Positions 19,556-59,910 of a stretch of 64,000 bases of DNA are shown here, piece by piece. Position 1 is the first letter of the stretch, and the number at the start of each line of letters is the position of its first letter. This DNA comes from Octopus vulgaris (lineage: Eukaryota), in contig OX597819.1 in the NCBI GenBank assembly GCA_951406725.2, forward strand, positions 4,092,001 through 4,156,000. The letters are read 5' to 3'. A program made the translations under genes and the position numbers. The notes below the pieces were generated by a model, which was not told the origin of the DNA, searched no databases, and was given only the letters and a program-made list of their open reading frames with translations.

Positions 19556-19595
19556 TACCTGAGGAGACCCAGAACGTGTCGAAACATATGTTGTA
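19556..19595 (+). ncRNA. Minimal type-I hammerhead ribozyme motif (PLE pLTR type)
   Basis: tac|CTGAGGA|gac ccagaacgt gtc|GAAAC ATAT GTT|gta; palindromic stem III ACATATGT, 3-bp stems I and II, AATAAA at 19599. Confidence 0.6.
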
Positions 19596-22500
19596 ACCAA
19601 TAAAGTCTATTACACATTCCATCTCCTATTTTATTAATACTTTTATATATATGTAGGTATATATATGTAGGTATATATACTTACATATATGTGTGTGTGT
19701 GTGTGTGTGTGTGTGTGCGTATGTGTGTGTGTGCATGTATACAAATGTGTATACGCCTTATCCAAACTCAGCTGCTTGTCCTTTCTATGAAAACCAACTG
19801 TGTTTGCATAAAGTGTACAAGCAATAATGTAAGCCTCTGTTTTAGAGGGCTACAATCGTACATCAAAACTCTTCTTACCAACTCAAACGTTATAGCATTA
19901 TACGTATATATAGTAGCGGTTTATGACACGAATACCGCCTCTGAAATTCAGAGAGGATAAAGTACATCATAGATATCACATGATCGGTGTCTGACGTTTC
20001 AGTGCTATGATTCGAATGTTTCTAAACTCAACGAAACAACTGTTACGATGTAGAAATATAAACTGAAAACAACCTGCATCAACAAATATTTTCACAAGAC
20101 TTAAATGCAATAATTCGTTTGAAATTTATTTTATTCAGGGAATTCTGAAACAATCTTCTTCTGTTTTGTAGATGATGCAGAATATAGTTTAAGCATAGAA
20201 ATAGATAGAAAATAAGAGTACTATTTCATTAGCTAATTTTGCTCGCTAATAGATACATTCTGGAGACAGTTAAACATCTTGGATATTCATACGGATAATG
20301 ACCAGCTTGTGCAAAGATTAGAAACGGAATTAAAGTTTTCTTTTAATTGCTTGAAAGAATCAAGTAGTGAAGAACACTATTTTCAGCAATGAAAGTAAAC
20401 GAGACTACAAATTATTGATGTCCAAAGAATTTCTTCTAAAATCTGTTGTATCTCAGCGATATTTAAAATTTATGTATATTGAGCTAACGATGCTGTCCTA
20501 AAAATAACGCATACTCTAGTTAATGTAAGTCACAGATGCAGCATGAATGAAAAACTGATTGGATCTTTATATGCGCTCGGTGGAGCATTAAACAGATAAT
20601 GTCTTTTAATGTTGTGCCGAATGGGAGAAACTATCAAAGTGTATTCTGAAATATATTTTAGATCGAAAATAGAATTAATTGTGACAGGATTTGGATATCA
20701 ATGTTAAACAATATAAAGATTTGTGGATTTAATTTGAATGAATTTTTCATGTATTTGAGTAACGTTATCATAAGCATTGTTTGTTAAAATACGCGTGCCA
20801 TGTGTATGGTCATGAGTGAATAATCGTTCAATCCACTTATTTGTATAGCTAGCTTGAACGGAATGAATGGATAGGTTCATGCGTCGAGAGATTGACATTT
20901 CGTGTTTTGTGGTAGGGCACTTAATTACATATACTTCAGTTCACCTCAGATTTTGTTGAAAATGGTCAATAGGTGTGATTCCTTGTTGACTGATGCATGT
21001 AATCCCTAAAGGTCAAGAATGCATATTCATCTTTTGGATTACGGTTTTAGAATCCCAATCGGATTCGCAATCTTGAAGTGTCAAGAACTTATATTGTGCT
21101 TCATGACGTTTTCCATTGATATTTTATGAAACTGAAACATCTAAATAAGAATAATACAAACTCTTTCAATCTTGTCTAATCAAAAATTATTGTCGACCAA
21201 GGAAGTGTCAATAAGCGAAGATAACGCTTATTGACACAACAGTTTTGCGTCACAGGCACAAGATACCGAAAAGGTTCTCTGAAAATTCTAAATGATTCTT
21301 TGATTGTCTACAGTTCTAGCATTGAATGAAATATAAGTTGATTTTTTTTTTTCCAGTAGATACAAATTTAACTGCGATATGGTCGACTGAACCAACTTTT
21401 GTTGGTTGAAATTGATAATATGTGGAAATTTTTCTTTTTACAATATTGAAAACCTCATACACCTCCTAAGGACCTCATTTACAGGGTCAATCTATTTTTA
21501 AAAAAATAACTGGAGCTTTTGTTTTTATCGAGTTTTAAAATATGAAGATTCTAGTAAGCCTCTGTTTAATTTAAACTTGGAAATAAGGGAAGAGTAGTTA
21601 GTGTGAAATCCTCATACTTCTACCAATTCTGAGACACGTGTTTGCTTAGTATACTTGTTTCCTCACCTGATAAGTGATGAAAATCATGACAATTTAAAAT
21701 ACACGCTCACATACACACACAGACACGTGCGTGTATATCTGTTTGTATATTGTCTTATATATGCCAACAAGTTTTGAGAGACCACACTTTTGATGAAAAA
21801 GGAAATATTTAATTTACGAGTCTAACACATTTAGAATTATTTCTATGTAGTTTACCAATGGTTTCATGTAAAAGAAAACAATAACGGCCTTACTTTATAA
21901 TTATGGTTGTTTTATATGCGTTAAACTTGGTCGCTAGATGAAATCTCGAACGAGAACAGGATTATGCCAAGCACACGGTTCGGAATTTGTAAACCTGTAA
22001 ATTGCTTTGCTAGATTCTCTCTCTTTACATCATGTAAATTCCTGCTAGATTAAGAACATAAAGTGAAACAAATTTTATGTAAGAAATTGAATAATACTAA
22101 ATGACATGATCATAAACTTTCAGACTGAGCAATTAAACTCACAGTCAACTAAAATGCTCGAGCAAAGTAATGTCAGTTTGAACTGACATTGAGGGCATAA
22201 ACATAAATGTTAATAGACGGACTGTAAAATATTAAAGAAGGATTTTGAACAAGGAGACTGATAATTTAGAAATAAAAGAGGGGGAAAAGAAAACAGGTAA
22301 AAGGAGAAAACAGAAAAAAAAATTGTGGAGGGGTGTAGATAAAAAAAAACAAGAAGGAATAAGTGAAAGCGAATACAAAGAAACAAATGAGAAAAAAAAA
22401 ACCCAGAAAATTTGAGTGCCCTTCACAATAAGGAGGTCTCCATTCGATCTCTTTCTCTCCTTATTTCTTCCATTACAATGCCAATATCGCTGAAAAATCT

Positions 22501-23320
22501 CTGGAGAATTGCTTTTATTGTTCAATACACATTTACAAAAAAAAAAAAATATCTATTATGCGCTTTCTCACAGGATCGTGAGATGTAAAGAAAAAGTCAC
22601 AAAAGACAGCGTAGAGGAAAGAAAACGAGATAAAGAGAGGCATCAGGGGAAAATATAAACCGTAAACCTTTTAATGGGTTTTAGTGGGGGGTGTATCCTC
22701 TTCCGTTATACAAATTTCCCCTCATGCGTACAAGGGCTAAAAACTTGTCATGGCGTTTACGACAATCCAAGGACACAAGTGTTTTTTTTAAACCTCACAT
22801 TTTCTGTAATACCGTGTTCTATCAAACTCTCTGTTACCTTGTTTCTTTTTCTTTGTCTCCTCTAACTTTTTATTAAGAAAAGCGTTCGAGCTTCTCTGTG
22901 CGTGTATGAGCGCGTATATTTACATGGATATTGTTTCTTTTTGTGAAGACAGTAGAGCAAAGGAGACGTTCCTCTAGAGCTACCCCGAAGTCATGTCTCC
23001 TCTATTTATAAGCTTTCTTAATTTAATTCGAATTTCTTACACGTATGCCCTTTCAGAACAGATGTAGTTAATGACTCCAAACGTTCTTGTCGTTGAATTT
23101 CTGATCCGGTACTCTCAGTATACAGATGTGTTTGGGAAATAAATACTTCTGGCACGAGCGGTAGTTTTAATAATAATATATGTATATACATAAACACACG
23201 CATGCACAGACGTGCAAATACATGTTTACACACACACGCTTATACATACACATATATAAACATATGTGTGTGTGTGCGTGCAAATTTAGTGATTTTTAAA
23301 AATAAATTGAGAGAAAATTA

Positions 23321-23368
23321 ACAACCTTAATCGATTTTCGAATCTTATTGGATTCTCATCAGAGTCGT
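23321..23368 (-). ncRNA. Minimal type-I hammerhead ribozyme motif
   Basis: Minus: acgact|CTGATGA|gaatc caataa gattc|GAAA ATCGA TTA|aggttgt; 5-bp stem II starting G-C, palindrome AATCGATT, stem I with one bulge. Confidence 0.7.
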
Positions 23369-57907: not shown

Positions 57908-57910
57908 TAT

Positions 57911-58017
57911 AAAAATATGGAACGCTTCACGAATTTGCGTGTCATCTTTGCGCAGGGGCCATGCTAATCTTCTCTGTATCATTCCAATTTTAGAATATGT
58001 ACCGCCGTAGCTAGTAC
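57911..58017 (-). pseudogene. U6: U6 snRNA full-length copy (107 nt), probably a retro-pseudogene
   Basis: Minus: gtactagctacggcggtacatattctaaaattggaatgatACAGAGAagattagcatggcccctgcgcaaagatgacacgcaaattcgtgaagcgttccatattttt; ACAGAGA box and AGC triad present, several substitutions versus canonical U6. Confidence 0.95.
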
Positions 58018-59910
58018 ATATATCTAAAATTGAAGAATTCTTGATTCTTCATATTATTTCCATTTGTTATTTGGATTTCGTCCGAATTGGCTTGACGACT
58101 CTGTTAATGATTCTGTGTGTGTGTGTGTGTGTGTGTGTGTGTGTGTGTGTGTGTGTGTGTATAGATGTATCTATGTATACATGTTCATTTAATTTAAAAG
58201 ACAAATTGAAACTTAGTTTTCGTTGCTGAGAGTTACCCGCCATCTGAATGCTAACTTTGTAAGTACACTTTTGCCACCATCATGAGTTTCGCCAGGAAAT
58301 ATGGCTCACATACAGTAACTATAAACCAAGTTTTATGAAATTTCCTGATGCTTATAAAAAATAATGAAATGAATGCTAATTTTCAAAAGCAAAATATTTA
58401 TTACTTTAACATAGAAATTAAATAAAAAAAAACAAAATTTCACAATTGTATATTTGCAATAAATACATGATATTATTTCTCTGAATTTTACCACATAATC
58501 ACAATCTACTCCATCGAAAGCTGTTATACACACACACACACACACACACACACGTGTATGTATGTGTATATATACATATATATATATATATATATATATA
58601 TATATATATATATATATATATATATATATATATATACATATATACATATATACATATACATATATATGTATATACATATATATATATATATATATATATA
58701 TATATATATATATATATATATATACACGCACACATTTATAAACAATATATTTATATATACATCTTTTAAAAGAATACACGCGCGCACACAACAATATATT
58801 ATAGATTATATATATATGGAAACAGAAAAAAGCATAAATATATTCTTTTATACAAGGCAAAGGTTGATGTAGTGAATGTTGTAAGCAATAAATTCTCAAT
58901 TTATTGAAATTTATTTCTGATGTGGAGAAAGAAAAGAAAATCTTAGCAAAATTGCTAGCGTCACTCAAAGAAAAGTGAAGTTTATATGAAAAAAGAAAAA
59001 TTAATTTATGAAGTTAATTTACATGTTTAAAGAAGTCACAGCGTGATCTTTGTTTGCCGGCGAGTTACAACTAAGTGTATATATTTTGGTCTATTTGACC
59101 TCGTCATCAGAGTGCAGTTTAAATGAGACTAAATTTGTGGATACTTTTTTTCTTATAGAAAAAGACTTAAGTATGTTTTTTGGCCATTGTAATTTTTTCT
59201 TTATTGGATTTGCTTTCTTTAGATTCGTTAACAATTACCGCCTGGGTGAGTGTTCGTTCTCCAGCATACAAAGAGGCATAAATATATTAAGGATTTGTTT
59301 TTTGCTTTTTGCTTTTTGCTGGGTTTTTTTTTTCTTTCTTTCTTTATCTGTACTGCATTTAGTACATCACCCTCCAACATTATTATTCAAATTCATGTAA
59401 TTGACCCATTTGAATTAGCTCCCTTAGGTCTGTGGGTTTTTTATATATTTATCTTTTATTTTGTTTGTGAGTGCTAGTGTGTGTGTGTGTGTGTGTGTGT
59501 GTGTGTGTGTGTGTGTGTGTGTGTGAATAAGCAGCTTGTCCCCATTTTGTTTTCTCGTTTCTCAGTTTTCTGTCACGCTGTAGGAATATAGGAATGTGGA
59601 AGGAGAAAGTAAGAACTATCCGTGTTGAGAGGGTTGTGGAGAGAAGCGGTGAGAGCGAGGGGGAGTATTACGAAAAAAGAGATAGCACAGAGCTGAATAA
59701 CAACGACTTAAAACTTAACTGGTTGAAGAAACTCGGAAGTTATGAAAGTGGAAAGTGTGTCTCAATGTAAACTGCAAGAAAAGTAAGAGCGGTAAAGTCC
59801 TCCTCAGTTCAGCTAAATGTACTTTCCTCAATGTTGTGAATAATTGTTCGTGTGTGTGTGTGTGTGTGTGTTTGAATGGATATATACACACACACATACA
59901 TACATATATA

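What the first reader, a model, noticed from the sequence alone, without database searches (positions are those of the whole stretch)
19556..59110. A dense, sequence-diverse population of minimal hammerhead ribozymes in microsatellite-embedded islands
Seen: at least five motifs have the full CUGANGA and GAAA cores, three stems and an NUH site (19556+, 23321-, 39252-, 50667-, 51625-). Three more are near-intact (39361+, 41033-, 57201-) and several are decayed (23834-, 42217-, 42602+, 59074-). Their stems are unrelated to each other, yet most have a (near-)palindromic short stem III (ACATATGT, AATCGATT, ACGCGCGT, ACAATTGT). Established: minimal type-I HHRs with palindromic stem III mark Penelope-like element pLTRs and are proposed to cleave as dimers. 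Inference: many independent PLE or non-autonomous retrozyme-like families target (TA)n here. That gives roughly one HHR relic per 5 kb, which could cut host transcripts crossing the region.
Basis: partly seen in the sequence, partly recalled or inferred. Interest (0 to 1): 0.85.

Follow-up and report, generated by a model that had tools for sequence, protein, structure and literature searches.

The report
Spliced Penelope leaders copied back head-to-head
The hammerhead-ribozyme motifs are real but are ordinary ends of many Penelope-like jumping-gene families; the new point is that one family has hundreds of short copies lacking an intron exactly at its splice sites, so they were likely copied from spliced RNA that the ribozyme had not cut, unexpected for elements known for keeping their introns.

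Summary
The motifs are real (3 strict hits vs 0.005-0.02 in shuffles). Each family searched is a dispersed repeat with fixed 3' ends on (TA)n, two alternative ends and head-to-head inverted copies. Two families (41088-, 51709-) lie downstream of Hydra-clade Penelope-like ORFs; one (50743-) is an ORF-less ~597-bp unit. This is the published picture, including an Octopus Hydra element with hammerhead and (TA)n target (Craig 2021). The window is not special: 24 descriptor hits per Mb genome-wide (~67,000), window 4 in 64 kb (P=0.07). No host exon found; cleavage untested.

Unexpected: the 39290-/39365+ pair is an intron-less copy of a longer element. Long copies carry a 1.0-1.8-kb GT-AG intron ending 13 nt before the core; 57 of the first 100 listed exon-1 matches are joined exactly at one of two donors. 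Short copies stop at an Initiator-like A, span the uncut cleavage site, and both arms share the splice form (21 of 21 pairs). This favours a spliced sense RNA template over the antisense self-priming hypothesis. Not found in my paper searches; the scan noted a related case elsewhere in this genome (e1-8670049).

The parts
39075..39327 (-). Family D long-tail arm: intron-less leader copy (exon 1 joined at donor 2, junction 39303/39302) with intact type I hammerhead, C3 at 39290; 3' end on (TA)n
39328..39500 (+). Family D short-tail arm, same splice form, hammerhead C3 at 39365 with U4 changed to A; head-to-head with the other arm
41002..41088 (-). Family F short-tail arm; hammerhead with C at core position 4 and GUU site, C3 at 41088; pLTR of a 717-aa Hydra-clade element
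41089..41250 (+). Family F long-tail arm, 5'-truncated inside the hammerhead, ends on (TA)n
50505..50970 (-). Family A 5'-truncated copy of an ORF-less unit of 591-597 bp; hammerhead C3 at 50743, 52-nt stem II region, GUC site
51597..51825 (-). Family C 3' end; hammerhead C3 at 51709, 60-nt stem II region; lies about 1.5 kb behind a Hydra-type endonuclease in longer copies
19540..19645 (+). Family B fragment; hammerhead C3 at 19559, stems worn in this copy; GUU site in 13 of 13 descriptor-passing copies
19421..19535 (-). 3' end of a different repeat family abutting the family B fragment
23282..23475 (-). Family E, old (76-85% identity among top hits); hammerhead C3 at 23362 with bulged stem I
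23746..23900 (-). Worn copy of a very abundant minimal-hammerhead family (no stem III loop, U at core position 6, extra A before stem II)
42117..42290 (-). Worn copy of a second abundant minimal-hammerhead family
42571..42690 (+). Decayed hammerhead relic, 2 relatives in 0.8 Mb sample
44717..45000 (-).
57185..57245 (-). Hammerhead-like motif, cores intact, stems I and II imperfect, no relative found in the sample
59074..59110 (-). Decayed hammerhead-like motif, no relative found in the sample
33960..34015 (+).
32765..32855 (+). Worn long-stem-II hammerhead related to family C, C3 at 32773
7443..7790 (-). Endonuclease fragment of the family F Hydra-clade ORF (88% amino-acid identity), joined in inverted orientation to the last 23 nt of the family F tail and (TA)n

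Best explanation
The motifs are hammerhead cores in the 3' ends of about ten Penelope-like repeat families inserted in (TA)n, and the 39290/39365 pair is a head-to-head double copy that lacks the family's GT-AG intron and was likely reverse-transcribed from a spliced, ribozyme-uncut sense RNA. Shown by sequence: families, fixed ends, Hydra-clade ORFs for C and F, intron and its exact loss in D, capped 5' ends, concordant arms. Inferred mechanism: transcription starts at an Initiator-like site in the terminal repeat; the first intron is spliced; the element's enzyme cuts both strands of a (TA)n target and primes at two internal start sites downstream of the hammerhead (the tail and no-tail ends); priming near the RNA's 5' end runs off at the start site and leaves short promoter-less copies, the two cDNAs from one RNA being joined head-to-head. 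Most window motifs are therefore dead-end insertion debris, probably without effect on the host.
For: Repeat families: 645-2,123 first-look candidates each. Family F sits behind a 717-aa ORF in partial tandems of 2,591 bp; family C behind a Hydra-type endonuclease in 13 of 20 loci. Head-to-head pairs carry one long and one short tail in 46 of 53 pairs over five families, matching the two RT start sites shown in vitro (PMC11167929). Family D: unspliced donor in 4 loci, intron 1,041-1,826 nt with GT-AG ends, 25 + 11 arms joined at two donors 4 nt apart; 41 of 69 copies show a GT-AG junction against a longer copy; 841 exact exon-1 matches genome-wide vs 10 control, first 100 listed = 57 joined, 42 unspliced, 1 other (hand count). 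A third junction (11 of the 57) is the one expected from the subfamily whose first donor lacks GT. 5' ends of 36 joined arms: 9 stop exactly at the A of an Initiator-like motif, 26 shorter, 1 longer by 4 nt that the opposite arm also supplies. Splice state agrees in 21 of 21 classifiable pairs. Same layout (start site, 5' intron, intron end at helix I) is published for Drosophila Penelope (PMC2377424, PMC4209133).
Against: No RNA data were obtained, so start site, splicing and lack of cleavage are read from DNA only. No intact ORF was found for family D; its link to Hydra rests on one endonuclease fragment inside one insertion (L357, E 3e-9). No convincing spliced junction in the 14 other motif families tested (F and C hits are tandem-repeat artefacts), though long parents were missing for several. 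Pairs were not a random sample (S2 pairs chosen by the query, unspliced pairs by spacing), two are duplicates of one locus, and gene conversion between inverted arms could create concordance. Families B, E, the two minimal families, 44919, 57236 and 59074 are not tied to any ORF. 5' ends of family F and H1 copies are scattered, not capped.
Confidence: 0.75

Rival explanations
1. Family D short copies descend from a few master elements that lost the intron once (DNA deletion or one old retrocopy) and then amplified as a short non-autonomous element; splicing is not ongoing.
For: Short copies are 97-99% alike and abundant; non-autonomous hammerhead repeats mobilised by Penelope-like elements are described (PMC7229834; bioRxiv 10.64898/2026.07.22.740005).
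Against: Three different junctions, all at GT-AG; both main forms occur on the same diagnostic haplotypes; none of 36 arms carries upstream promoter sequence; palindrome centres differ from copy to copy, so each was made anew.
Confidence: 0.12
2. The RNA is spliced and sense, but the palindrome is made by fold-back: one cDNA turns on itself at the RNA 5' end, copies its own strand and is cut at the short-tail site; or arms were homogenised later by gene conversion.
For: Explains concordant arms as well as twin priming does; self-priming was proposed for head-to-head copies (PMC3846280, there on an antisense template).
Against: Both strands are cut and extended and both start sites are used in vitro (PMC11167929); L073 has about 190 bp of nearby flanking DNA captured between the arms; arms differ at single sites in several pairs including the window's.
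Confidence: 0.3
3. The hammerheads are active processing signals: tandem transcripts are cut to monomers, circularised and copied by rolling-circle reverse transcription, and single copies can cut host transcripts that cross them.
For: Fold is kept across subfamilies while stem III sequence changes among palindromes; family A occurs as ORF-less partial tandems of 591-597 bp in 4 of 10 loci; circular retrozyme RNAs are shown in coral, mussel and axolotl (PMC7229834).
Against: Linear start-site-capped copies spanning the cut site in family D; no pile-up of 5' ends at the cut site in F, H1 or the minimal families; young F copies carry U4C and GUU; hammerhead mutants do not affect insertion in vitro and cleavage needed the protein (PMC11167929); no host exon found.
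Confidence: 0.2
4. Chance matches in AT-rich, microsatellite-rich DNA.
For: Two window motifs have no relative in the sample (57236, 59074); relaxed descriptor gives about 1 false hit per Mb; 8134- passes one tier and looks spurious.
Against: (shuffle and reversal controls); conserved motifs in repeat families.
Confidence: 0.02

Closest known systems
Hydra-clade Penelope-like elements, incl. Hydra-1_Obim of Octopus bimaculoides (Craig et al. 2021, PMC8557442; section 11, passages and supplement rows read)
   Same: Short single-ORF elements, RWK and DKT motifs, CxCX5C linker, no CCHH, hammerhead in the terminal repeat, (TA)n target, inverted 5'-truncated copy, tail on one end. Hydra-1_Obim's listed hammerhead also has U at the cleavage site, and its protein reads as a clear relative of the family F ORF (by eye).
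   Different: Several distinct Hydra families here, tails of about 45-150 nt rather than 30-40, stem II regions of 50-60 nt in three families; intron-less leader copies are not mentioned in the passages read.
[quoted passage not shown]
   Same: Thousands of mostly single, sequence-diverse motifs per genome in several families, palindromic stem III, extra base before stem II, pairs on opposite strands 100-700 bp apart, low activity in vitro.
   Different: Higher estimated number (~67,000 vs 2,000-9,000 quoted for three genomes; descriptors differ); most window motifs have a 3-4-bp stem III, so are variant rather than minimal.
Drosophila virilis Penelope promoter and 5' intron (Schostak et al. 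2008, PMC2377424, passages; Arkhipova 2003 not read)
   Same: Start site in the terminal repeat, donor a few tens of bases downstream, intron end next to hammerhead helix I, most transcripts spliced.
   Different: Intron 1.0-1.8 kb rather than 75 bp, two tandem donors, and hundreds of genomic copies without the intron, whereas intron retention is the described rule.
Poseidon_Ac in vitro mechanism (Frangieh et al. 2024, PMC11167929; main text read)
   Same: Two internal RT start sites equal the tail; both target strands cut and extended; uncut RNA is the substrate.
   Different: No splicing or head-to-head product addressed there; different clade.
Metazoan non-LTR retrozymes (PMC7229834 passages; bioRxiv 10.64898/2026.07.22.740005 parts 1-2 of 5)
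   Same: Family A: ORF-less unit with a type I hammerhead in partial tandems, length within the 51-972 bp range reported.
   Different: Only partial dimers seen; circular RNA not tested.

Membership tests
Type I hammerhead ribozyme | CUGANGA and GAAA cores, three stems, NUH site | tested here: met
   Strict descriptor: 39290-, 50743-, 51709-; 41088- with U4C; others worn
Type I hammerhead ribozyme | Rfam Hammerhead_1 score at or above gathering cut-off (34 bits) | tested here: not met
   25.6 bits for 50743-, 27.5 for a family B copy, no hit for 39290-
Type I hammerhead ribozyme | Self-cleavage at NUH | not testable with these tools
   No assay; 7 of 8 not predicted to fold as monomers
Minimal hammerhead of metazoan PLEs | No stem III loop, palindromic 15.2-16.2, extra base before stem II | tested here: inconclusive
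   Met by the families of 23834- and 42217-; not met by the five main motifs, which have 8-nt stem III
Penelope-like elements | Partial tandem (pLTR), inverted 5'-truncated copy, tail on one end | tested here: met
   long/short tails in 46 of 53 pairs
Penelope-like elements | Single ORF with RT and GIY-YIG endonuclease upstream of the hammerhead | tested here: inconclusive
   Whole ORF for F, endonuclease end for C, one fragment for D, none found for A, B, E and the minimal families; Pfam gives no hit to either full ORF
Penelope-like elements | Intron retained in genomic copies | tested here: not met
   Family D: 57 of 99 classified exon-1 matches lack the intron, 42 keep it
Hydra clade | RWK and DKT motifs, CxCX5C linker, no CCHH, CxxC and CxH near the end | tested here: met
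   All read in the family F ORF; the 775-aa L192 family has RW, DKT, CxxC, CxH but no CxCX5C
Hydra clade | Under 3 kb, hammerhead present, inserts in (TA)n | tested here: met
   Unit 2,591 bp for F, about 2,865 bp for the L192 family; family C has a longer 3' region, unit length not determined
Hydra clade | Placement within the clade in an RT tree | not tested
   Only a by-eye comparison with Hydra-1_Obim in the supplement
Non-LTR retrozyme (family A) | ORF-less tandem units each with a type I hammerhead | tested here: inconclusive
   Period 591-597 bp in 4 of 10 loci, no ORF; only partial dimers
Non-LTR retrozyme (family A) | Expressed as circular RNA | not testable with these tools
   No RNA data obtained

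The most novel reading that the evidence does not exclude
Penelope-like elements copy spliced, capped, ribozyme-uncut sense RNA; one RNA is primed from both ends of the cut target at the two internal start sites, which yields the head-to-head palindromes; and introns survive in long copies only because the cap-proximal copy of the terminal-repeat intron is spliced while the downstream copy is not. That would settle the sense-versus-antisense template question and explain intron retention without an antisense intermediate, with splice forms serving as natural single-molecule tags.
Probability: 0.4. Interest if true: 0.75.

Novelty: new variant of a known kind. Interest (0 to 1): 0.5.

Why it matters
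The hammerhead population itself only adds family diversity and a high copy number to a published picture. The family D copies matter because how Penelope-like elements keep introns and why they form head-to-head palindromes are stated open questions (PMC8557442, PMC3846280). Hundreds of copies joined at splice sites, capped at a likely start site and tagged by two splice forms give a genomic read-out of template polarity, of whether the ribozyme cuts before copying, and of whether both arms come from one RNA, all testable with the full genome and one RNA data set.

Tried and rejected
Whole-window Rfam scan: top 150 rows were U6 and microsatellite-driven microRNA matches, no hammerhead among them; 315 rows not shown. 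Pfam on two full Hydra ORFs and three fragments: nothing. Host exons: 150 of 160 candidate frames, three weak hits below cut-off, rejected; short exons could be missed. RT ORF beside family C in L056 is a separate neighbouring insertion; the Neptune-type endonuclease in L299 likewise. First idea that family D is a short element with no longer form: rejected by L355-L362. Cluster of D 5' ends at +42 to +67 is due to older relatives with different upstream sequence, not to cleavage. Homology-based relic count: family f7 rows dropped (54 sample, 10 flank, 4 window) because the query held SINE sequence, and about 11 double-counted rows; corrected by hand to about 77 in 800 kb; the window figure (about 16) is inflated by its own queries. 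Hammerhead count did not track (TA)n count per 10 kb (rho 0.08). Spliced-junction search: one search timed out, one search failed its positive control (de-duplication bug), one search is the valid run. RNA expression and cleavage ends were not examined. Rewired hammerheads of Naiad elements noted by the scan were not looked for in this window.
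Full report
Setting. The window is G000:C6:4,092,001-4,156,000 in a 2.8-Gb, 227-contig animal genome, 34% GC with 166 tandem-repeat rows. It reads as octopus-like: one ORF resembles Hydra-1_Obim and earlier notes of the scan use that label; this is inference, no call named the organism.

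Observation. All cores are at the stated places. A strict type I descriptor finds 39290-, 50743- and 51709- against 0.005-0.02 expected in three sets of 200 dinucleotide shuffles. 19559+ and 23362- need relaxed stems; 41088- is intact with C at position 4. Rfam Hammerhead_1 supports 50743- (25.6 bits, E 1.8e-4) and a family B copy (27.5 bits) below its cut-off and misses 39290-. Only 41088- has the three-way junction as predicted monomer fold, 1 of 8 folded.

Families. Each of the seven motif-side queries sent to the genome returned a dispersed family with 645-2,123 first-look candidates, of which 40 were scored each time. Top-hit identity runs from 97-99% (C, D) to 76-85% (E). Copies end 3' at fixed points on (TA)n, at either of two points, are 5'-truncated and often sit head-to-head. 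Across five families 46 of 53 head-to-head pairs have one long and one short tail (P 2e-8 against a coin). These are the Penelope-like signatures described in PMC8557442 and explained by two internal RT start sites in PMC11167929. Family F lies behind a 717-aa ORF with RWK, DKT, CxCX5C, CxxC and CxH and no CCHH, the Hydra definition in section 11 of PMC8557442; the window holds an endonuclease piece of it at 7443-7772 (88%). Family C lies behind a Hydra-type endonuclease in 13 of 20 loci. A further Hydra family (775 aa, L192; 20,097 first-look candidates for its RT) carries a hammerhead with the same long stem II build. Family A repeats with period 591-597 bp in 4 of 10 loci and has no ORF: a retrozyme-like unit. 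The supplement of PMC8557442 already lists an Octopus Hydra element with a hammerhead and (TA)n preference (the file was cut when stored). PMC13282606 (passages) lists 31 recently active Penelope-like families in O. vulgaris and has no occurrence of 'ribozyme' in its main text.

Density. With one relaxed descriptor: window 4 in 64 kb, flanks 9 in 150 kb, evenly spaced sample 24 in 1,000 kb; shuffles give 0.03 per window and 0-3 per 800 kb; reversed sequence 0. That extrapolates to about 67,000 motifs (count interval 15-34, so roughly 42,000-95,000). The window alone is not significantly denser (P 0.07); with flanks it is about 2.5-fold (P 0.0025). Including worn relics the sample holds about one per 10 kb after hand corrections. 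At least 15 sequence families were seen in the loci held. Cervera 2014 quotes 2,000-9,000 minimal motifs for three genomes, Cervera 2020 more than 6,000 in 16 families for a coral; so the kind is known and the number here is high.

The unexpected part: family D. An exact 17-mer across its cleavage site has 1,525 matches, control 0. Among the first 100 listed, opposite-strand neighbours cluster at 87-146 bp (16 pairs by hand count), then one at 282, then above 1.1 kb. I fetched nine of the wider or odd cases. They hold a long non-coding upstream region. Its last bases before the hammerhead form an AG acceptor 13 nt ahead of C3; 1,041-1,826 nt upstream lies the sequence with which the short copies begin, followed by two GT donors 4 nt apart (alignment). 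Short copies are that exon joined to the acceptor exactly at donor 1 (11 arms) or donor 2 (25 arms, including both window arms). A genome-wide exon-1 pattern has 841 matches against 10 control; the first 100 listed are 41 donor-1, 5 donor-2, 11 donor-2 of the subfamily whose first donor lacks GT, 42 unspliced and 1 unrelated (hand count). Of 36 joined arms, 9 begin exactly at the A of an Initiator-like motif (Initiator consensus recalled), 26 are shorter and one is longer by four bases shared with the opposite arm. Splice state is the same in both arms of 21 of 21 classifiable pairs of 24 (9 donor-2, 6 donor-1, 6 unspliced; two of the nine are one duplicated locus). With donor 2 at 5 of 46, eight concordant partners would have P 2e-8 if arms were independent RNAs, but selection of pairs and gene conversion weaken this. 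One insertion (L357) contains a Hydra-type linker and endonuclease piece (E 3e-9); no intact D ORF was recovered. The same test found no convincing junction in 14 other motif families.

Mechanism. Shown: intron, exact loss, capped 5' ends, copies crossing the cleavage site, tail asymmetry. From literature: start site and 5' intron in the terminal repeat, most transcripts spliced (PMC2377424, passages); intron end at helix I (PMC4209133); both strands cut and extended, internal priming, hammerhead dispensable and protein-assisted in vitro (PMC11167929). Inferred: priming at the upstream tail of a spliced, uncut sense RNA runs off at its 5' end; two such cDNAs from one RNA are joined head-to-head; priming at the downstream tail gives long copies that keep the intron, perhaps because only the cap-proximal donor is used. 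PMC3846280 proposed self-priming on an antisense template to explain both palindromes and intron retention; intron-less palindromes do not fit an antisense template. Fold-back on a sense-derived cDNA remains possible.

Host effect. No evidence: no Pfam exon, paired copies on opposite strands, weak monomer folds, and young family F copies with U4C and GUU. U4C lowers activity in vitro but sufficed for a viroid in vivo (PMC3088659, passage), so these variants are not proof of inactivity.

Novelty. Searches for intron-less or spliced Penelope copies (also 67) returned no paper describing them; the library lacks most subscription papers, Arkhipova 2003 and Lunse 2017 (recalled) were not read, and bioRxiv supplements were closed. 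The scan's note e1-8670049 reports a Penelope splice site joined to host exons and copied back in this genome; unchecked here, it points the same way. Verdict: the finding as posed is a known kind (about 0.25 alone); the spliced head-to-head leader copies are a new variant that bears on an open mechanistic question; overall 0.5.

Noticed in passing
window 57911-58017 (-): U6 snRNA match, 108.5 bits, full length; its 3' end abuts a SINE-like repeat and it has microsatellite about 100 bp upstream; gene or retrocopy not determined.
   Followed up: no
G000:C1:13,260,732-13,265,926 and 166,324,821-166,335,771; also 100,928,574-100,929,829: Unspliced family D exon 1 recurs in tandem with periods of about 1,738 or 1,210 bp while the cleavage-site 17-mer matches only at the outer ends; structure unexplained.
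   Followed up: no
L073:1313-1504 (also L076, L077): About 190 bp of DNA from 830 bp upstream is captured between the two arms of a family D palindrome; the locus is triplicated on C14.
   Followed up: partly
L295, L296, L297, L298: The young family F ORF has YKDD at the RT catalytic motif where Hydra-1_Obim and other families here have YRDD; many near-identical copies with long open frames suggest recent activity.
   Followed up: no
L192:3236 vs L217:3212: Two subfamilies of one Hydra family differ at core position 4, stem III and the cleavage base yet keep all three stems.
   Followed up: partly
window 23746-23900 and 42117-42290 families: 5' ends of these minimal-hammerhead families bunch at about -60 to -70 and -113 to -130 from the core; could be start-site-limited copies too; each family extrapolates to about 45,000-50,000 copies.
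   Followed up: partly
window 19421-19535 (-): 3' end of another (TA)n-inserted, palindrome-forming family (2,123 candidates) with no type I hammerhead in the piece held; might belong to the Naiad kind with rewired hammerheads noted by the scan.
   Followed up: partly
window 3793-4177, 57394-57910, 59916-60300 and others: Many copies of SINE-like repeats with an internal microsatellite, 72-96% alike.
   Followed up: no
window 48248-48558, 15640-15887, 31934-32082: Further inverted repeats without a detected hammerhead.
   Followed up: no
L037:1300-1500 (-) and other family C loci: Family C 3' region holds a 102-bp internal tandem duplication just upstream of the hammerhead.
   Followed up: no
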